The notes under the pieces were generated by a model. The model saw only the letters and a list, made by a program, of their open reading frames with translations. It was not told the DNA's origin and searched no databases. A stretch of 64,000 nucleotides of DNA from Escherichia coli (GTDB taxonomy: Bacteria; Pseudomonadota; Gammaproteobacteria; Enterobacterales; Enterobacteriaceae), in NCBI RefSeq assembly GCF_003018235.1, contig NZ_CP027437.1; one strand, 5' to 3'. Made by a program: the position numbers and the translations under genes. Below, in pieces: positions 14,262-29,813 of the stretch; positions within the stretch are counted from its first letter, which is position 1; the number at the start of each line of letters is the position of its first letter.

Positions 14262-14338
14262 TGGACCGTCACCGGGGACTCGAACCCCGCACTCTCAACA
14301 TAAAAGGTTGATGCTCTTTCCTGATGAGCTAGTGACGG
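14262..14338 (-). tRNA. Phage tRNA, anticodon UUU (Lys-type by anticodon)
   Basis: A hand-folded 77-nt cloverleaf. Acceptor stem CCGTCAC/GTGACGG. D stem GCTC/GAGC. Anticodon stem TCAAC/GTTGA with loop CTTTTAT. T arm CGGGG-TTCGAGT-CCCCG. Encoded CCA. The C1-G72 pair is unusual. Confidence 0.6.
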
Positions 14339-14340
14339 CA

Positions 14341-14416
14341 TGGTGGCCCTTGCTGGATTTGAACCAGCGACCTGGCGGTTATGAGCCGCTCGCTCTCACC
14401 ACTGAGCTAAAGGGCC
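14341..14416 (-). tRNA. Phage tRNA, anticodon CAU, ileX/ileZ-like (Ile2 type)
   Basis: GGCCCTTTAGCTCAGTGGT...CTCATAA...GGTTCAAATCCAGCAAGGGCCACCA. The acceptor and T arms resemble E. coli ileX as remembered. 76 nt with encoded CCA. Confidence 0.75.
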
Positions 14417-19661: not shown

Positions 19662-20490
19662 GACGATGCCCTCCGTTGATATTCAGGAGACGGTGAATAT
19701 GAAAATTAGCCTTATCCGCCAAACGAATACGTTCAGCCTGCAAGTTAAGAAGTGTTTCTACCAGAACCTGATGCGCCTGCGGATCCGAAAGAGTTACCTT
19801 GCGCAGAGCACGTAGTGCAGTTGTTACATAACTGAGTTTATGTAAGTCTTCATCATTCAGACGAGTGAGGGCTGGGACAGTAGCCATGATGGCAGCCTCC
19901 TTGATCGGTGAAATACTTCCACCACCGGAAACGCCAATTTCGCTGGTGGTGAACTGAACGGGGTTGGCGTAACCGGTGATCAAGGAAACCGGCGCATCTT
20001 TCGATGCCCCCGCCCAGCCCACCATAACTTTGATGTGAGCAAATGCGGACGATAAAAAAGACGCTGGCGCGTCATATATCGCCTTGATCAATTCCAGGAC
20101 GCCAATCCCGGCACCCGCTTTATAAGGTGCCTGAACAGTGTAACGTCCCGGAATGGCAGAATCAATGTGCTGGTGGTCCTTCACACTCAACAAAATCACG
20201 CCTGAATTTCCACAAAGGACTAAAGCACTCATGCGGGTAGTCTTTGCGAAGATAGATAACGCGCTGTGTTTCTGGCTCCCAACGAATAACATGGACATAA
20301 AGCCCTCTTCCGTCACGAAACCAGCGGTTAAGTTCCTGCACAACTCGCCCCCCACAGTCAGGTAAAGTTCTCTGTGGTTACTTACAGCCAGGTGATTTGG
20401 TAATCTGCATTCATGCCGTAACAACAGGTGTTCAGCGACGCTGACCACCAGCTGTTGCGACAAACGGTTATTTGCCGTTAAACTGTTCAT
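19654..20490 (-). CDS. Hypothetical 278-aa protein in the replication module
   Basis: A long ORF with a 4-nt overlap to the cII-like gene upstream and an 8-nt overlap to the next ORF. No family recognised. Confidence 0.55.
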   Translation of the reverse strand: MNSLTANNRLSQQLVVSVAEHLLLRHECRLPNHLAVSNHRELYLTVGGELCRNLTAGFVTEEGFMSMLFVGSQKHSALSIFAKTTRMSALVLCGNSGVILLSVKDHQHIDSAIPGRYTVQAPYKAGAGIGVLELIKAIYDAPASFLSSAFAHIKVMVGWAGASKDAPVSLITGYANPVQFTTSEIGVSGGGSISPIKEAAIMATVPALTRLNDEDLHKLSYVTTALRALRKVTLSDPQAHQVLVETLLNLQAERIRLADKANFHIHRLLNINGGHRHA

Positions 20491-21071
20491 GCGTTAGTTT
20501 CTCCACAGACACAAAACGCCACGACGCCCGGAGCTGCACACTCGCGGGCGTCACTACTTTCTGAAACGCAAAAGATTTTGTAGACCAGTGCTGCATGCTC
20601 CTGGAGCTTCGAAATTGACAGATACAACTCATCATTAATTGCTGTCTGCTCGTGTGGCTCCACTACCCCATCTTCGATTGCCGAACGAATCTGCTTTGAG
20701 TAACTCCCGATCTGTTCGATGACTTCCAGCAGGCGCTGGTTTATATCGGCGTTCTCTACTTCCTCAATTTCAGGAAGCGATACAAACACCCCACCTGCAG
20801 ACTGTGCGACAGCATCCGCAATGTAGTGAGTGCCAGCCGCGCGCTGTAAAATCATTGCCCATCCCAGCGGGAAAATCTGATCGCCATCTGCACGAAGGCG
20901 GTTGAATAAAGCGTTCTCTGTTACATCCAGCCACTCAGCAGCTTCAGCGTAACCCCCCGGCAACGCCGCGATAGTTTTTCTGACAGCTTTCACGTACCAC
21001 TCAGGCTGTTTTTCTACTTTCCAGTGATGCTTACCCACGGCTATCTCCTTAAAACTGTGGTTACTTTTCAT
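20487..21071 (-). CDS. cII-type early regulator (phage 186 CP76-like / YdaT position)
   Basis: ATG at 21071. EAAEWLDVTENALFNRLRADGDQIFPLGWAMILQRAAG resembles the phage regulatory CII family. It lies immediately after cro. Confidence 0.5.
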   Translation of the reverse strand: MKSNHSFKEIAVGKHHWKVEKQPEWYVKAVRKTIAALPGGYAEAAEWLDVTENALFNRLRADGDQIFPLGWAMILQRAAGTHYIADAVAQSAGGVFVSLPEIEEVENADINQRLLEVIEQIGSYSKQIRSAIEDGVVEPHEQTAINDELYLSISKLQEHAALVYKIFCVSESSDARECAAPGVVAFCVCGETNA

Positions 21072-21309
21072 CTGATGAGTCTTTAATCTTTTGAAAAATA
21101 TCTGGACGTAATTTTTCTTTTGATACGCCAGTGGTCTTTTCAATGAAAATCGAGAGCTTTGCAGGGGGACGCTTTTCTCTGTTCAACCAGTTCCAGACAT
21201 GTTGTTGCTTTACTAAATGACCGCTGCTGGCTGTGAGCTTCCGAGCCAATTCTGATTGACCACCAGCCAGAGCGATTGCCTCCGATAAGGCTAATTGCTC
21301 AGGTGTCAT
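21061..21309 (-). CDS. Cro-like repressor (YdaS-type HTH)
   Basis: 82 aa with HTH GGQSELARKLTASSGHLVKQQHVWNWL. It is divergent from cI across the operator region. Confidence 0.75.
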   Translation of the reverse strand: MTPEQLALSEAIALAGGQSELARKLTASSGHLVKQQHVWNWLNREKRPPAKLSIFIEKTTGVSKEKLRPDIFQKIKDSSDEK

Positions 21310-21330: not shown

Positions 21331-21415
21331 TTAAGTTGTTACGAGATGCAAGAATACAACATTAACAACTTTTATCACAACTTTTAGGTGTTGGAAAGCT
21401 AAAACATAAAGTTGT
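21331..21415. promoter_or_regulatory. OR operator/promoter region
   Basis: CAAC/GTTG-based repeats. ACAACTTTTAGGTGTTG (21377-21393) and ACATAAAGTTGT (21404-21415) recur almost unchanged in the OL region (23097-23113 and 23057-23068). Confidence 0.65.
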
Positions 21416-21444: not shown

Positions 21445-22131
21445 GTGAAAACACTGGCAGAACGATTAAAGATAGGTAGAGAGAAAGCTGGCATGAGCCA
21501 AGCTCAACTAGCTGAAAAAATTGGACTTTCACAACAATCTGTAGCCAAAATAGAGAATGGAGAAACTCTACAACCGCGCAAAATTAAAGAAATTGCAAAA
21601 ATTTTAGGTGTATCACAAAAGTGGTTACAACTTGGTATTGAAGACAACGCATCCATACCTGATCTTGTTGTAAAAGAAGCAGAAAGCACCGCATTAGACC
21701 CCGATATTTTCGTAAACATTCCTGTTTTAGATGTCGAGTTATCGGCTGGTAACGGATGTCTGGCTGAAATAGTTGAATCAGCTATTGACTGGTTTCCGTT
21801 AAGAAGAGCAGATTTGAGAAAATCTGGCGTATGTGCATCTAATGCCAAGATCGTAAAAATCTGGGGGAACAGTTTATTACCGGTTCTCAATAATGGAGAT
21901 CTTGTTGCCGTTGATATTTCTCAAACCGTTCCTATTCGTGATGGCGATCTTTATGCCGTACGAGATGGTGTATTGCTAAGGGTTAAAATACTTATCAACT
22001 TACCTGACGGTGGCTTGATTCTTAGAAGCTTCAACAAAGATGAGTACCCAGATGAAATACTCACCTTTGAGGATAGACGAGCCAGAATTCATGTTATAGG
22101 TAGGGTATTCTGGTCATCGCGAACTTGGTAA
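21445..22131 (+). CDS. CI-type prophage repressor (XRE HTH plus S24 LexA-like peptidase)
   Basis: GTG start. HTH MSQAQLAEKIGLSQQSVAKIENGE. The C-terminal autoprotease pattern GNSLLPVLNNGDLVAVD ... LLRVK is present. Confidence 0.85.
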   Translation: MKTLAERLKIGREKAGMSQAQLAEKIGLSQQSVAKIENGETLQPRKIKEIAKILGVSQKWLQLGIEDNASIPDLVVKEAESTALDPDIFVNIPVLDVELSAGNGCLAEIVESAIDWFPLRRADLRKSGVCASNAKIVKIWGNSLLPVLNNGDLVAVDISQTVPIRDGDLYAVRDGVLLRVKILINLPDGGLILRSFNKDEYPDEILTFEDRRARIHVIGRVFWSSRTW

Positions 22132-23004
22132 TGCGTCGAAAAGCATTTCTTCAGAAATAATTTTAAGTTTTGCACCATTATCATCCCGATAAGATATAGC
22201 CTTTTCGATCTTCCTTCCGTGACTTGAGAATTTCCAATCACGGGAGGAAAGCGTCCCTATTACTAAAAAATCCAACTTTTGAGTAATTCCACTACTGATG
22301 TTCCCACCAGCATTTTTAATCAAATTTTCAACTACGGCTCTCTTTCCTGCAACAAAAGTGCCTGTAAGACAATAGGTTTTACCCTCTAACTCTATCGAAG
22401 CCCCTACATCAATAGGCAGCCTGGTCGCCAAACCATCCACCACCCCACTTTCCAAGTCACATCCAGTGAAGTCTACTAATGCCTTATGTAGAGTTAAACT
22501 CTCATCTTCAGTAATAACACCATCTTTAAGAATTTCCTTTACAAGTGCATAAAGGTTTTTTCCTGGGTAGTTGTTCCTCAAAGCTCCATTTTGCTCAAGC
22601 CACCAATTAAGATATCTTATTTCTTCTTGAGTTAAGTTTCGATCAGCAATTAATCATTTACATAGTCCATTAAGTAAATGGACATCTACATCTTTGGAGT
22701 AAAAATCAATTTCAGGGATATCAAGAATTTCTCTCTGTATTTGAAGAAGGCTATTTTTAAGGTCATCACGTTCTTCTGATGTGATTATTCCATCCGCAAG
22801 AATATCCGATACCCGTGCTGATAGACTTTTTATAACTCCATTATTGATAATCTGCTTTGCTTCAAGTAACCATGTATCTAAGTAAAGAACCTCCTCTTCA
22901 CGGACAACTCCATCTGCAATGATTCCATCAATGATGCTAATCAAGTTAGCAAATAACTTGTCCCGGTTCTGTGTGTAATTAAAAGCGTAAAGCGCGTCTT
23001 CCAT
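22114..23004 (-). pseudogene. TerB-like repeat plus BRCT-domain protein, interrupted by one in-frame TGA (22654-22656)
   Basis: ATG at 23004 with AGGAGG upstream. There are four copies of an (I/L)x(A/K)D(G/R)x(I/V/L)xxEE helix motif. The C-terminus GKTYCLTGTFVAGKRAVVENLIKNAGGNISSGITQKLDFLVIG...KLKIISEEMLFDAL follows the LigA-type BRCT pattern. ORFs 22654-23034 and 22114-22581 share one frame. Confidence 0.6.
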
Positions 23005-23056
23005 ACAACCTCCTTTTTTTGATAATCCTTGCACTCCTTGACTACACGTTCAAACT

Positions 23057-23113
23057 ACATAAAGTTGTTGACAACATTCAAAACAACAACCAGATTACAA
23101 CTTAAAGGTGTTG
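23057..23113 (+). promoter_or_regulatory. OL operators and candidate pL promoter
   Basis: Operator repeats shared with OR. TTGACA at 23068-23073, with AGATTA/GATTAC 18-19 nt downstream. Confidence 0.5.
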
Positions 23114-23186
23114 AGATGACGAACAGGCAGGACGCCCACGAAGTAGCCGTCTGGGGCATATGAAGTCCAGGATGATTCGTTAGCAA

Positions 23187-23210
23187 CAAAAAAGCGCCCT
23201 ATAGGACGCT
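23187..23210 (-). terminator. Rho-independent terminator of the DUF1311 gene
   Basis: Minus strand: AGCGTCC-TATA-GGGCGCT followed by TTTTTT, about 30 nt after the stop codon. Confidence 0.6.
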
Positions 23211-23211
23211 T

Positions 23212-23224
23212 CGCTCTTTAACAA
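23212..23224 (+). promoter_or_regulatory. boxA-like element in the pL transcript
   Basis: CGCTCTTTAACAA equals the boxA consensus as I recall it. It lies about 120 nt downstream of the candidate pL. Confidence 0.45.
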
Positions 23225-23237
23225 TCTGGATGACTTA

Positions 23238-23750
23238 TTACTCAGATTTGAACTTTGGTTCTGGCAAAAGAGGAGGAGTTGAGTCCTCGAATCGTAGCCA
23301 GTGCTCCCAGATATCGTGGGATTGTAATTCCAGAAGACCAATTTGACGTGATGCAACTGCAGTGCCAGCTATAGTTCCTCCTGCATAATCAACCTGGACG
23401 GACTTTGACGCTTTCTCAATTAATTCTGTCCAAGCTTCACTTTCCGCGTTAAAAGAAGCAGTTAATTCCTGCAGACGCTGTGGATCATCCTTGTTGTCTT
23501 GTTTCAAACGATTCAGGGCGGCCACCGAATACTTATTCTTAACCCAGCTAACCTGAGCTAACTGAACTCTCTGACAAGCGTCCATATCAGTAGTTGTTTC
23601 CTGAGGCATATCAAAGCAGGAAATAAAAAAAGTCTCAACACCATCATTTAGACTACTGCTCGGCTGGTTCAAAGCATCAGAAGCATTGGATGCTATCGGT
23701 ATTATCAGTGCTACCGACAGAATCAAACGTTTAACATAAATCGCTCCCAT
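23238..23750 (-). CDS. Secreted DUF1311 (LprI-like) protein, moron antisense to the pL transcript
   Basis: A signal peptide (LILSVALIIPIASNASDA), then the C...C...W...Y...Q..W pattern of DUF1311. The gene has its own terminator. Confidence 0.6.
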   Translation of the reverse strand: MGAIYVKRLILSVALIIPIASNASDALNQPSSSLNDGVETFFISCFDMPQETTTDMDACQRVQLAQVSWVKNKYSVAALNRLKQDNKDDPQRLQELTASFNAESEAWTELIEKASKSVQVDYAGGTIAGTAVASRQIGLLELQSHDIWEHWLRFEDSTPPLLPEPKFKSE

Positions 23751-23916
23751 TTAATTATCCCCTCTAAGAACAGAGTCATCCAGATTATCTGAATCCTTGT
23801 TGTTGGGGAATAACCAGGCCCACCTCGCCTGATGTGGCTAAAAGCAGGCACATAACAGCTAAGTATTTTCAACCAGAGAGAATCCTTAGCGTTGTGGTGA
23901 ATGCGGCTCAGCGCAC

Positions 23917-24010
23917 GCGGGCTAAGGTTGAGGCTGACAGTCGACCTTCTGTGGATACCCACCCGCCTGGTGTGCAACCTTCGCCAGGCACCGGGAGGCA
24001 CCCGGCACCA
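23917..24010 (+). ncRNA. GC-rich multi-hairpin RNA module in the pL leader (candidate cis-acting or small RNA)
   Basis: Hand-folded stems. 23924-23948: AAGGTTGA/TCGACCTT. 23951-23962: GTGG/CCAC. These two are closed by GCGG/CCGC at 23917-20/23963-66. 23966-23988: CCTGG/CCAGG. 23991-24005: CCGGG/CCCGG. There is no convincing ORF here. Confidence 0.4.
23989..24010 (+). repeat. 22-nt GC-rich hairpin motif, pL-leader copy
   Basis: CACCGGGAGGCACCCGGCACCA, identical to the minus strand of 13485-13506. Confidence 0.9.
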
Positions 24011-24035
24011 CAACTTTATGCTGTGTATAGTCCTG

Positions 24036-24082
24036 GCGGTACCAGTTTGTACCCTTGCTTCCGGCTGGTACCGCTCTTTTTA
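24036..24082 (+). terminator. Rho-independent terminator in the pL leader
   Basis: GCGGTACCAG ... CTGGTACCGC (10-bp stem, 19-nt loop) followed by TCTTTTT. The 3' arm and tail also read CGCTCTTTTTACAA, which is boxA-like. Confidence 0.55.
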
Positions 24083-24170
24083 CAAAACAGAGAAGAGCAT
24101 CACCGGACGACGGGCTCATAACCCAATCCACCCGGGCGGCTGCCACCGCAGGTGTTCTTCTCTGTTTTGT
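24082..24170 (+). repeat. Perfect 15-bp inverted repeat enclosing 59 nt
   Basis: ACAAAACAGAGAAGA (24082-24096) pairs with TCTTCTCTGTTTTGT (24156-24170). The interior has further CACC/GGTG, CGGG/CCCG and GCGG/CCGC pairings. Confidence 0.85.
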
Positions 24171-28589: not shown

Positions 28590-29813
28590 TCAGTTTGAAT
28601 CAGAGATAGTACAATTAACAATCGATTCAACCCTCTTCCACCATGCCAGGTAAGCTTTACGCTGTTCTTCTAGATAATCGCTCTTATCATAAACTTGCCA
28701 TACCCCTGGCAGCTTATGACCAAGCATAATTTCTGCGATATGAGGCGCAGTAAGATCAGAAAAATTTGTTCGTGCTGTCCGTCTCAAGTCATGAAGAGAC
28801 CAATGAGGGAATTGATATCCTAAACGCCGCCACGCGTACTGCATTAAATTGTAAGGCAGCGACTGTAATGATGTCCTACCGACGGGTTCCCTGCTTCCTT
28901 CCTTAGTAAAAAGCATATCGGAACCGTTGTTCATAGAGATAACGTATTTTATAAGCTCTTCAACCGGTTCAATAATGGGCCGCTTTAGCGGTTTGCCTGT
29001 TATGTCCCCTGTCTTATGTCGTTCAGGTGGTACAGTCCATACCTTATTTATGAAATCAAAATCACCCACCCTAGCAGTAATTAGCTCCGAACTACGGCAA
29101 CCAAAATGCAGTAATAGTTTAATGAAGGCCCGGTATTTGGGAACCATTCTAGAGCCATCGATCGCAGCATAAAGAATTTTAATTTCATCGTGTGTCAGAA
29201 ACCGTTTCTTCTGACCTTTACGGATATCCATATCTTTACCCGTGATATCCGACAGCGGGCGAGTTTCAATAAGCTTTCTCTTATACGCCCAGACATGGGC
29301 CTGCTTTGCGTTAATTAGCAATCGGTCTGCTATTGCTGGAGTCTTAGTGCTAAGAGGCTCCAAGACTTCTAACCAATCATGCAATGTAGCTGCATCGTGA
29401 GGGATATTCCCGATTTTAGAGAACAGGTGCAGCTCAAACGAGCGGAGTATCTGTTCAGAACCCTTTTTATTTTTTACACAATATGCTTCATACCAGGCAC
29501 GGATCACAGACTCTACCGTCATGGCTTCAGTAGCTTTTCGTTTTTCAGCCTGCTTGACCAATCGTGGATTACGGTTTGACTCGAGTTCACCACGGAGACG
29601 GATAACTTCTTCTCTGGCCTCTTTTAATCCAGTTGCCGGGTAAGTTCCGATATCAAGACGCTCACCTTTCCCTGCCCATTGATAACGATATTGGAACACT
29701 ACGCGACCTTTCGGTGATACTCTGACAGACAGACCATCACGATCGGATTTAACCAAAACCTTATCACGTTCCTTTCCAACGACTGAACGCAACCACGCAT
29801 CAGACAGCGCCAT
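28590..29813 (-). CDS. int: Tyrosine integrase (P4-type, with DUF4102 N-terminus)
   Basis: MALSDAWLRSV...GLSVRVSPKGRVVFQYRY N-terminal arm domain. The C-terminal catalytic region contains HDLRRT...GH and a terminal Y region. Confidence 0.9.
   Translation of the reverse strand: MALSDAWLRSVVGKERDKVLVKSDRDGLSVRVSPKGRVVFQYRYQWAGKGERLDIGTYPATGLKEAREEVIRLRGELESNRNPRLVKQAEKRKATEAMTVESVIRAWYEAYCVKNKKGSEQILRSFELHLFSKIGNIPHDAATLHDWLEVLEPLSTKTPAIADRLLINAKQAHVWAYKRKLIETRPLSDITGKDMDIRKGQKKRFLTHDEIKILYAAIDGSRMVPKYRAFIKLLLHFGCRSSELITARVGDFDFINKVWTVPPERHKTGDITGKPLKRPIIEPVEELIKYVISMNNGSDMLFTKEGSREPVGRTSLQSLPYNLMQYAWRRLGYQFPHWSLHDLRRTARTNFSDLTAPHIAEIMLGHKLPGVWQVYDKSDYLEEQRKAYLAWWKRVESIVNCTISDSN

What the first reader, a model, noticed from the sequence alone, without database searches (positions are those of the whole stretch)
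22114..23004. TerB-like-repeat / BRCT-domain gene in the immunity region, broken by one in-frame stop
**Position.**
- The gene lies between cI and OL. This is the slot where lambda carries rexAB and other phages carry exclusion or abortive-infection genes.
- It is a ~296-codon reading frame on the strand opposite cI. Its 3' end overlaps cI convergently by 18 nt.
- Its start, with an AGGAGG Shine-Dalgarno, abuts the OL operators.

**Domains.**
- Four copies of an (I/L)x(A/K)D(G/R)x(I/V/L)xxEE helix motif, TerB-like: IIADGVVREEE, ILADGIITSEE, LIADRNLTQEE, ILKDGVITEDE.
- A C-terminal domain whose pattern matches the BRCT domain of NAD-dependent ligases.
- I know of no characterised phage-exclusion protein with this architecture.

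**Lesion.**
- A single TGA at 22654-22656 splits the frame after repeat 2.
- The downstream half has no ATG and no Shine-Dalgarno of its own.
- The gene is therefore either a recent pseudogene or dependent on readthrough.
Basis: partly seen in the sequence, partly recalled or inferred. Interest (0 to 1): 0.6.

Follow-up and report, generated by a model that had tools for sequence, protein, structure and literature searches.

The report
Broken prophage BRCT gene beside repressor
This is a copy, inactivated by a single stop codon, of a widespread but uncharacterised temperate-phage gene that always sits next to the phage repressor and encodes a small non-enzymatic protein with a DNA-end-binding type of BRCT domain; the lesion is ordinary, and the intact family is the modestly interesting part.

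Summary
A 296-codon minus-strand frame (22114-23004) has an AGGAGG ribosome-binding site. It overlaps cI convergently by 18 nt, abuts OL/PL and is broken by TGA at 22654-22656.

- **Lesion.** Intact E. coli orthologues read GGA (Gly117, invariant in the family), so this is a G-to-T nonsense mutation. The truncated products recur on about 60 public contigs, so the allele is real and fixed in a lineage. Nothing supports readthrough.
- **Protein.** The intact protein has two tandem four-helix modules, each with two D-x6-E motifs, followed by one BRCT domain. The BRCT is closest to the RFC1/LigA class and keeps that class's phosphate-pocket residues.
- **TerB.** This label is only weakly supported.
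- **Family.** It is large (PHROG 3989; Vibrio phage K139 Orf2) and always a single gene. It lies in lysogeny modules: convergent with cI in all 80 close viral contigs, and inside the cI-int operon of K139 and of a Pantoea P2-like prophage. Elsewhere the same module is fused or adjacent to DEDDh exonucleases.
- **Function.** It is untested. My best inference is a lysogeny-module protein that binds DNA ends or nicks and acts against incoming DNA, here dead.

Interest is modest.

The parts
22114..23004 (-). Whole reading frame of the BRCT-family gene (296 codons plus stop), interrupted by one nonsense codon; a pseudogene
   Evidence: Translation. It is 98.5-98.7% identical in DNA to intact 296-aa genes annotated 'BRCT domain-containing protein' in 46 complete E. 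coli genomes. Full-length match to PHROG 3989, E 2.9e-128.
22654..22656 (-). Premature TGA at codon 117, a G-to-T change from GGA (Gly117)
   Evidence: DNA alignment with two intact orthologues. Gly117 is invariant in 97 of 97 family members. The following base is U and there is no significant downstream RNA structure.
22657..23004 (-). N-terminal fragment ORF (116 aa): helical module 1 plus part of the first helix of module 2
   Evidence: The exact sequence is on record on 60 contigs, the longest 5.0 Mb.
22726..22956 (-). Helical module 1 (residues 17-93): a four-helix unit with two D-x6-E motifs (D31/E38, D71/E78)
   Evidence: Internal duplication by hhalign, probability 99.7%. AlphaFold model: pLDDT 92, helices 10-28, 36-52, 56-69 and 76-94. 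Conservation counts.
22456..22686 (-). Helical module 2 (residues 107-183), a duplicate of module 1 (D121/E128, D161/E168); the stop codon falls in its first helix
   Evidence: Natural short forms of about 210 aa consist of this module plus the BRCT domain.
22135..22389 (-). BRCT domain (residues 206-290) with a conserved pocket: T214-G215, R222, R255, and the family signature SRDW..S.GRKIEKA
23009..23014 (-). Shine-Dalgarno sequence AGGAGG, 4 nt upstream of the ATG
   Evidence: Read directly from the sequence. Conserved in orthologous prophages.
23025..23053 (-). Candidate promoter of the BRCT gene: TTGAAC, 17 nt, then (TGc)AAGGAT. It is weak, has an extended -10 format, and abuts the nearest OL operator. 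This is an inference.
   Evidence: The block TGnAAGGAT and TTGATT/TTGAAC is conserved across E. coli, Serratia and Citrobacter prophages. The consensus scanner did not call it.
23057..23113 (.). OL operators with PL (TTGACA 23068-23073, 17 nt, CAGATT 23091-23096, firing rightward and away from the BRCT gene)
   Evidence: Motifs shared with OR (D3, D11, D12). Near-invariant in orthologous prophages, where the -10 reads TAAATT.
21445..22131 (+). cI-type repressor (HTH_3 plus Peptidase_S24, 228 aa), convergent with the BRCT gene and overlapping it by 18 nt
   Evidence: Pfam. An orthologous cI (49-99% identical) lies convergent and adjacent in 80 of 80 viral contigs and in the 10 Enterobacterales loci fetched.
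21356..21415 (.). OR operator region between the cro-like gene (YdaS family) and cI; it shares its operator motifs with OL

Best explanation
**What it is (shown).** The feature is a nonsense-inactivated copy of a conserved single-gene family of temperate phages. That family includes PHROG 3989 and Vibrio phage K139 Orf2. The intact 296-aa protein has no enzymatic domain. It consists of two tandem four-helix modules, each with two acidic D-x6-E loops, packed against one C-terminal BRCT domain. The BRCT belongs to the RFC1/LigA/PARP class and retains the Thr-Gly / Arg / Arg(Lys) pocket.

**How the intact protein likely works (inferred).**
- It is made from the lysogeny module. In P2-like phages it is cotranscribed with cI. 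In this lambdoid group it would come from a weak promoter next to the OL operators.
- Its BRCT pocket would bind 5'-phosphorylated DNA ends or nicks, or a phosphorylated or replisome partner.
- It would then act as a non-catalytic cap or adaptor on DNA that is not the resident prophage. The most likely target is the ends or annealed cos nicks of superinfecting phage DNA. The helical modules would serve as the regulatory or partner-binding part.

**In this window (shown).** A G-to-T change turned the invariant Gly117 codon into TGA inside the first helix of module 2. The 116-aa product lacks module 2 and the BRCT domain, and the gene is dead. The rest of the frame is still undecayed, so the loss is recent.
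For: **Pseudogene**
- In-frame TGA where orthologues read GGA.
- Gly117 is invariant in 97 of 97 members.
- The fragments recur on 57-60 contigs.
- Apart from the stop, differences from intact alleles are 12 synonymous codons against 2-3 conservative nonsynonymous ones, and there are no frameshifts.

**Architecture**
- hhalign detects the duplication.
- The AlphaFold model has pLDDT 92 and pTM 0.89.
- In the RFC1 alignment, T214, R222 and R255 occupy the positions of the RFC1 residues that I recall from the literature as contacting the 5' phosphate (T415, R423, K458). These positions are T in 91/97, R in 96/97 and R or K in 78/97 members.

**Single-gene family**
- 351 relatives at 90% clustering and 2854 representatives at 50% clustering, mostly 285-305 aa.
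- 78 of 80 viral loci are intact.

**Lysogeny-module position**
- Convergent with an orthologous cI in 80 of 80 viral contigs, with cI identity ranging from 49 to 99%.
- The same arrangement in E. coli, Serratia, Citrobacter and Rosenbergiella.
- CI, then the BRCT gene, then int in a Pantoea P2-like prophage.
- In K139 the annotated lysogenic promoter PL precedes cI-orf2-glo-int.
- Next to int in Pseudomonas phages.

**DNA-end and repair association of the module**
- Fusions to DEDDh exonuclease, to HhH plus BRCT, and to an SF1 helicase plus restriction-type nuclease.
- A separate DEDDh exonuclease gene immediately upstream, beside a UG9 reverse transcriptase and PolA.
- Neighbouring SbcCD and Cas9.
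- A partial match to the PADLOC defence candidate PDC-S48.
Against: - No experiment on any member was found in the searchable literature, so the function is inference from domains and position.
- In this lambdoid group the gene is antisense to cI. Its promoter is only a conserved, weak consensus match that the scanner did not call. Expression in the lysogen is therefore not shown, and it could instead be switched on at induction.
- BRCT domains also bind phosphoproteins, so DNA-end binding is not established.
- DEDDh-BRCT fusions include housekeeping proofreaders such as mycobacterial DnaQ. The exonuclease link therefore does not by itself imply defence.
- The gene is dispensable. There are two independent nonsense alleles (this one, and Q242* in L059/L060), and it is present in only 46 of 5426 complete E. 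coli genomes.
Confidence: 0.55

Rival explanations
1. The gene is still functional. This could be through UGA readthrough (or selenocysteine), through reinitiation after the stop, or because the two halves work as separate proteins.
For: - The frame downstream of the stop is intact, with no further lesions.
- Natural short forms of about 210 aa consisting of module 2 plus BRCT exist.
- Gene callers annotate a 155-aa product starting at a TTG.
- The allele persists on about 60 contigs.
Against: - The context is UGA-U, which established E. coli termination studies rank as an efficient UGA context (my knowledge, not tested here).
- There is no SECIS-like or other stable structure downstream (z = -0.52).
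- Orthologues have an invariant Gly codon there with the same downstream sequence.
- There is no in-frame ATG before residue 287. The TTG at 22581 has only a GGAG ending 2 nt away from it.
- A product from that TTG would lack helices 1-2 of module 2, whereas natural short forms start 20-25 residues before the module.
- All 120 closest clusters and 78 of 80 viral loci are single full-length genes.
Confidence: 0.07
2. The stop codon is a sequencing or assembly error, and the gene is intact in the organism.
For: It is a single-base difference from the intact alleles.
Against: - The exact truncated 116-aa and 155-aa products are recorded on 60 and 57 contigs from NCBI, ENA and Logan assemblies. 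One of these is a 5.0-Mb contig, and the index lists the protein in 65 blocks.
- The change is a substitution, not a homopolymer indel.
Confidence: 0.02
3. The intact protein is not an exclusion or defence factor. Instead it is part of the phage's own lysis-lysogeny or DNA-damage circuitry. For example, it might sense damaged DNA or replisome state to tune induction, help establish lysogeny or integration, or act through a transcript that works as an antisense regulator of cI.
For: - Linkage to the repressor gene is strict across 49-99% cI divergence, with overlapping convergent 3' ends.
- The position is between cI and int in K139 and in the Pantoea prophage.
- The upstream region shares the OL operators.
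- BRCT domains are typical of DNA-damage signalling.
- Module neighbours include SbcCD and UvrD.
Against: - The gene sits beside three unrelated repressor types: HTH plus S24, P2-type CI, and K139 cI. In Pseudomonas phages it sits beside int with no repressor listed next to it. This fits 'lysogeny-module cargo' better than a partner of one particular repressor.
- Prophages with nonsense alleles persist.
- No LexA box lies near the gene.
Confidence: 0.2
4. The N-terminal repeats are true TerB domains, and the protein is a Ter-type sensor of metal or stress, giving a TerB-linked resistance phenotype.
For: - The ADG...E motif resembles the TerB signature.
- 19 of 97 relatives give weak Pfam TerB hits (best E 9.5e-5) and 7 of 97 give DUF533 hits.
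- TerB domains occur in defence systems such as Shango; the papers listed use these terms, but I did not read them.
Against: - The protein itself has no TerB hit at E<=1.
- A PDB profile search with the helical half at E<=10 returns no chain named TerB or tellurite resistance, only weak EF-hand and unrelated hits.
- No ter genes were seen among the neighbours examined.
Confidence: 0.15

Closest known systems
Vibrio cholerae phage K139 Orf2 (NP_536630.1) and its copies in Kappa, VPUSM 8, 919TP and VcP032
   Same: - Same family and architecture: 33% identity over 95% of the query, tblastn E 7e-39, 301 aa.
- It matches the same half of PDC-S48.
- It lies in the lysogeny module immediately after cI.
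   Different: - K139 is a P2-like myovirus. There orf2 is on the same strand as cI, inside the annotated lysogenic operon cI-orf2-glo-int.
- Here the gene is convergent with a LexA-like cI of a lambdoid prophage, and it is broken.
- No function for Orf2 was found in the literature I could search.
PADLOC candidate defence protein PDC-S48 (DEDDh exonuclease + helical linker + BRCT)
   Same: Residues 119-251 match model positions 239-377 of 411, E 3.1e-7. That is one helical module plus the BRCT domain. True DEDDh-containing relatives of this family match the model from end to end.
   Different: - This protein has no exonuclease domain. It carries a second helical module instead.
- PDC-S48 is itself only a computational candidate.
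BRCT domains of RFC1 (p140), NAD-dependent ligase LigA and PARP1
   Same: - These are the best sequence and fold matches.
- The pocket residues align: T214-G215, R222, R255.
- This BRCT class binds 5'-phosphorylated DNA ends or nicks (established knowledge, not tested here).
   Different: - There are no clamp-loader, ligase adenylation/OB/HhH or PARP domains.
- The label 'NAD-dependent DNA ligase' that some sources give is an annotation artefact of the BRCT hit.
Lambda rexAB and other immunity-region exclusion genes (for example 933W stk)
   Same: It occupies the slot between cI and OL/PL inside the immunity region.
   Different: - There is no sequence or fold similarity.
- It is on the strand opposite cI.
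- It is a single small soluble protein, not a sensor plus an ion channel or a kinase.
- No exclusion phenotype is known.
TerB family (PF05099), including TerB-domain proteins of defence systems such as Shango SngA
   Same: It shares helical repeats with an A-D-G-x5-E-like acidic motif. There are weak sub-family Pfam hits in 19 of 97 relatives.
   Different: There is no significant TerB match for this protein. The fold search gives only generic four-helix bundles. No Ter or Shango partner genes were seen.

Membership tests
BRCT domain (Pfam PF00533) | Sequence match above the curated gathering score | tested here: met
   27.9 bits for the intact orthologue and 32.7 bits for the window's C-terminal half, against a cut-off of 21.3. 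92 of 97 relatives hit.
BRCT domain (Pfam PF00533) | The beta-alpha-beta-beta-alpha-beta-alpha BRCT fold | tested here: met
DNA-binding BRCT subclass (RFC1/LigA type) | Conserved phosphate pocket (Thr/Ser-Gly after beta1, Arg in alpha1, Lys/Arg at the start of alpha2) and actual binding of 5'-phosphorylated DNA | tested here: inconclusive
   The pocket residues align with RFC1 and are conserved: T214 in 91/97, G215 in 95/97, R222 in 96/97, R or K at 255 in 78/97. DNA binding cannot be tested with these tools.
TerB (Pfam PF05099) | Significant profile match of the helical region | tested here: not met
   No TerB hit at E<=1 for the intact orthologue or for either half. Only 19 of 97 relatives give weak hits, best E 9.5e-5. 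No chain named TerB appears at E<=10 in the PDB profile search.
TerB (Pfam PF05099) | TerB-like fold | tested here: inconclusive
PADLOC PDC-S48 (candidate defence) | N-terminal DEDDh (RNase T/DnaQ-like) exonuclease domain | tested here: not met
   Only model positions 239-377 of 411 are matched. There is no RNase_T hit. Relatives that carry DEDDh match from model position 1.
NAD-dependent DNA ligase LigA (a name given by some sources) | Adenylation, OB-fold, Zn-finger and HhH domains | tested here: not met
   The NCBIfam LigA models are matched only at their last 50 or so residues, at 17-27 bits against cut-offs of 369-1051.
PHROG 3989 / K139 Orf2 family | Full-length similarity to the family profile | tested here: met
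   E 2.9e-128 over residues 2-295 of 296. K139 orf2 is 33% identical over 95%.
Immunity-region exclusion genes (rexAB-like, positional class) | Located between the repressor gene and OL/PL | tested here: met
   The gene lies between cI (21445-22131) and operators shared with OR at 23057-23113.
Immunity-region exclusion genes (rexAB-like, positional class) | Cotranscription with the repressor in the lysogen | tested here: not met
   Opposite strand here, convergent with cI. Same strand only in K139 and the Pantoea P2-like prophage. Actual transcription is not testable here.
Immunity-region exclusion genes (rexAB-like, positional class) | Exclusion or abortive-infection phenotype against other phages | not testable with these tools
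   No experimental report was found.
Pseudogene | Premature stop relative to intact orthologues, with no plausible recoding signal | tested here: met
   TGA against GGA. Intact in 46 E. coli genomes and in 78 of 80 viral loci. No structure after the UGA.

The most novel reading that the evidence does not exclude
The intact family is a new kind of prophage immunity factor. It would be a non-enzymatic protein made from the lysogeny module that uses an RFC1/LigA-type BRCT pocket to cap 5'-phosphorylated ends or annealed cos nicks of incoming linear phage DNA. That would block ligase-dependent circularisation, or recruit host nucleases such as the DEDDh partners seen elsewhere. The duplicated acidic four-helix modules would gate this activity. 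The integrated prophage, having no ends, would be spared. The window's allele would then be a natural loss-of-immunity mutant.
Probability: 0.15. Interest if true: 0.7.

Novelty: new member of a known kind. Interest (0 to 1): 0.35.

Why it matters
The broken copy matters little by itself. It is one more decaying accessory gene in an E. coli prophage.

The useful result concerns the intact family.
- It is large: 2854 representatives at 50% identity.
- It has a well-defined architecture: two duplicated helical modules plus a BRCT domain that retains a phosphate-binding pocket.
- It sits in the lysogeny module of at least three unrelated temperate-phage types, next to the repressor or the integrase.
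- It has no assigned function.

Genes in that position have repeatedly turned out to be exclusion or defence factors. The same module is also coupled to DEDDh exonucleases in a computational defence candidate.

The natural nonsense allele, carried on about 60 contigs, and a second independent one provide ready-made isogenic controls. These can be used to test whether the protein protects lysogens against other phages, foreign DNA or DNA damage.

Tried and rejected
- **TerB by sequence.** A Pfam scan of the protein and of each half at E<=1 gave no TerB hit. A PDB profile search with the helical half at E<=10 returned no chain named TerB. Its one borderline hit, 5gzs (a GGDEF-family protein, E 5.6e-4), aligns poorly and I judged it spurious.
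- **Known defence system.** PADLOC gives only a partial match to the candidate PDC-S48. I rejected membership because the exonuclease domain is absent.
- **Ligase.** Rejected: only the BRCT tail of the LigA models matches.
- **Readthrough, selenocysteine or a stimulatory RNA structure.** Folding the 73 nt around and after the UGA shows nothing beyond shuffled controls.
- **SOS control.** No LexA box lies near the gene; matches across the window are at chance level.
- **Known RNA in the region.** Rfam found nothing inside the gene.
- **Literature.** Searches for BRCT with prophage, anti-phage or TerB, for PDC-S48, for K139 orf2 and for DEDDh with BRCT found no functional study of this family. 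The 1999 K139 control-region paper could not be opened.
- **Alignment too diverse.** The first attempt to scan genome contigs with the 97-sequence alignment failed because no stretch was conserved enough. A 20-sequence alignment worked.
Full report
**1. The observation**

The minus strand of 22114-23004 translates as one 296-codon frame with a single internal TGA at codon 117 (22654-22656) and a terminal stop.
- The ATG at 23002-23004 is preceded by AGGAGG at 23009-23014.
- The 3' end overlaps the 3' end of a plus-strand 228-aa ORF (21445-22131) by 18 nt. That ORF is a LexA-like phage repressor with HTH_3 and Peptidase_S24.
- To its left lie a YdaS-family cro-like gene, a CII (CP76) gene and replication genes. 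To the right of the finding lie yfdP/yfdQ-type early-left genes and an integrase at 28590-29813.
- The host flank is E. coli-like chromosome next to rsmC and three tRNA-Leu genes.
- The 60 bp upstream of the finding's start share three motifs of 12-20 nt with the cro-cI intergenic region. They contain a rightward TTGACA-17-CAGATT promoter (23068-23096).
- This block is almost invariant in orthologous prophages of Serratia and Citrobacter, where the -10 reads TAAATT.

All positional and sequence statements in the finding are therefore correct.

**2. The lesion**

- Two intact E. coli orthologues (296 aa, RefSeq 'BRCT domain-containing protein') read GGA where the window reads TGA, a G-to-T transversion.
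- Gly117 is invariant in a 97-member alignment spanning 26-89% identity.
- Apart from the stop, the window differs from those alleles at 12 synonymous codons and only 2-3 conservative nonsynonymous ones. There are no indels. The gene was under purifying selection until recently.
- The allele is not a read error. The exact 116-aa and 155-aa fragments are on record from 60 and 57 contigs in NCBI, ENA and Logan.
- None of the 46 complete E. coli genomes that carry the gene (of 5426) is more than 98.7% identical, and all 46 are annotated as 'BRCT domain-containing protein'. Intact 296-aa proteins are recorded on well over a thousand contigs.
- Among the 80 closest IMG/VR viral contigs, 78 are intact. 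Two carry an independent nonsense at Gln242.

Readthrough is not supported:
- the base after UGA is U;
- the downstream RNA folds no better than shuffles (z = -0.52);
- the orthologous codon is an ordinary Gly;
- there is no in-frame ATG before residue 287;
- the TTG used by ORF callers (22581) would give a protein missing half of a four-helix module.

**3. What the intact protein is**

*BRCT domain.* It is real.
- Pfam PF00533 scores above its gathering threshold.
- A family profile finds the BRCT domains of RFC1 (E 1.6e-8), LigA (9e-7 to 6e-6) and Rad4/TopBP1.
- In the RFC1 alignment, T214-G215, R222 and R255 fall on the residues I recall as forming the 5'-phosphate pocket of the RFC1 BRCT region (T415, R423, K458; literature knowledge, not tested here). 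They are conserved in 91/97, 96/97 and 78/97 members.
- A family-specific signature, SRDW..S.GRKIEKA (W257 and G263 invariant, K265 in 96/97), follows.

*N-terminal half.* It is an internal duplication: residues 17-93 align to 107-183 with hhalign probability 99.7%. Each unit is a four-helix module with two D-x6-E loops. E38 and E128 are invariant, and D31, D121, D161 and E168 are conserved in at least 90% of members.

*TerB label.* It is not established.
- The protein has no Pfam TerB hit at E<=1.
- 19 of 97 relatives give weak hits, best E 9.5e-5. Seven hit DUF533 and six hit an EF-hand model.
- The PDB profile search returns no chain named TerB.

I therefore describe the modules neutrally.

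*Database names.* No enzymatic domain is present. 'NAD-dependent DNA ligase', a name some databases give, reflects only the BRCT tail.

**4. The family and its contexts**

- The family is large: 351 clusters at 90% identity and 2854 representatives at 50% identity with E<=1e-3, of which 136 have E<=1e-30.
- Most members are 285-305 aa.
- A short form of about 210 aa equals module 2 plus the BRCT domain.
- Longer proteins fuse the module to a DEDDh exonuclease, to HhH plus a second BRCT, or to an SF1 helicase with an MTES_1575 nuclease.
- It is PHROG 3989, function unknown.

*Lambdoid prophages of Enterobacterales.* The gene is always convergent with, and slightly overlapping, an orthologous cI.
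- This holds in 80 of 80 viral contigs, with cI 49-99% identical.
- It also holds in E. coli, Serratia, Citrobacter, Rosenbergiella and S. microhaemolytica genomes.
- Meanwhile the replication and early-left modules vary.

*Other temperate phages.*
- In a Pantoea P2-like prophage the gene lies on the same strand between a P2-type CI and int.
- Vibrio phage K139 orf2 is a member (33% identity over 95%). The GenBank record places it in the lysogenic operon PL-cI-orf2-glo-int.
- In Pseudomonas temperate phages the short form sits next to int.

*Outside prophages.* Neighbours include:
- a separate DEDDh exonuclease gene immediately upstream, beside a UG9 reverse transcriptase and its PolA partner;
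- an SbcCD operon;
- Cas9;
- a UvrD-type helicase.

*PADLOC.* The only hit is the candidate PDC-S48. That model turns out to describe DEDDh exonuclease plus a helical region plus BRCT. This protein covers only its C-terminal half.

**5. Mechanism**

*Shown:* the architecture, the conserved pocket, the lysogeny-module location beside three different repressor types, and the recurrent coupling of the module to DNA-end-processing enzymes.

*Inferred:*
- The intact protein is a non-catalytic binder of 5'-phosphorylated DNA ends or nicks, or of a phosphorylated or replisome partner.
- It is produced from the lysogeny module and acts on DNA other than the integrated prophage. The most economical reading is the ends or cos nicks of superinfecting phage DNA.
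- In the lambdoid group a conserved, weak promoter in extended -10 format (TTGAAC, 17 nt, TGcAAGGAT; 23025-23053) abuts the OL operator nearest the gene. cI could therefore control it much as it controls PRM. This is conjecture, and the consensus scanner did not call the site.

*Main rival:* a role in the phage's own lysis-lysogeny or DNA-damage circuitry, about 0.2. The tight, overlapping convergence with cI favours it. Association with unrelated repressors and with int, and the persistence of null alleles, argue against it.

No experimental study of any member was found. Mycobacterial DnaQ shows that DEDDh-BRCT proteins can be housekeeping enzymes, so the exonuclease link is not proof of defence.

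**6. Verdict**

The finding is real and correctly described at the sequence level. It is a recent, lineage-fixed nonsense pseudogene of an already catalogued but uncharacterised temperate-phage family. The BRCT call is right. The TerB call is at best a distant resemblance. The rexAB analogy is positional only. Readthrough is unsupported.

The copy in this window is ordinary. The intact family is a reasonable candidate for experimental work, and natural null alleles are available as controls.

Noticed in passing
window 23861-24083 (+): Near-threshold Rfam match to the gammaproteobacterial sRNA STnc100 (44.5 bits against a gathering score of 47, E 1.5e-7, full model length). It lies in the gap between the 170-aa ORF and the yfdP-type early-left genes.
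   Followed up: no
window 23114-23230: The roughly 110 nt immediately downstream of PL are 94-98% identical to unannotated stretches of many lambdoid phages (SfII, SfIV, SfV, Kati, PhiR29 and others), although the flanking genes differ. The stretch ends in a hairpin (23191-23212) that reads as a strong terminator on the minus strand. It could be a conserved PL leader or nut-like element, or a small RNA.
   Followed up: partly
window 23238-23750 (-): A 170-aa ORF with an N-terminal signal-peptide-like segment and no Pfam hit sits antisense to PL transcription and has its own terminator. The slot is variable: strain NRZ14408 carries a different small gene there. It is probably a second accessory gene.
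   Followed up: partly
L059 2237-3121 and L060 4001-4885: A second, independent nonsense allele of the same gene family (Gln242 to stop) occurs in a lineage 91% identical to the E. coli protein. The gene has therefore been lost more than once.
   Followed up: partly
L013 1872-6849: In an uncultured Chromatiales genome a family member directly follows a separate DEDDh exonuclease gene, which follows a UG9 defence-associated reverse transcriptase (E 1e-238) and its PolA partner (E 2.6e-173). This may be an undescribed four-gene version of the UG9 system, or a split PDC-S48 lying next to it.
   Followed up: partly
window 20487-21143 (-), and residues 58-92 of the BRCT protein: The D-G-x-I/V-x-x-x-E helix-loop motif of the helical modules also gives weak hits to phage CII/YmfL models (NCBIfam YmfL E 1.6e-4; Phage_CP76 in 6 of 97 relatives). 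The prophage's own CII-like protein contains IEDGVVEPHEQ. Shared motif or chance was not resolved.
   Followed up: no
L026 5417-10404 (also L025, L027): Short-form family members in Desulfovibrionaceae-like genomes are preceded by a conserved upstream gene, which in L026 has a weak HTH_3 match. In L026 the member lies about 600 bp upstream of a Cas9 gene.
   Followed up: no
window 14262-14416 (-): Adjacent tRNA-Lys(UUU) and tRNA-Met(CAU) genes lie in the stretch to the left of the replication genes, apparently within the prophage.
   Followed up: no
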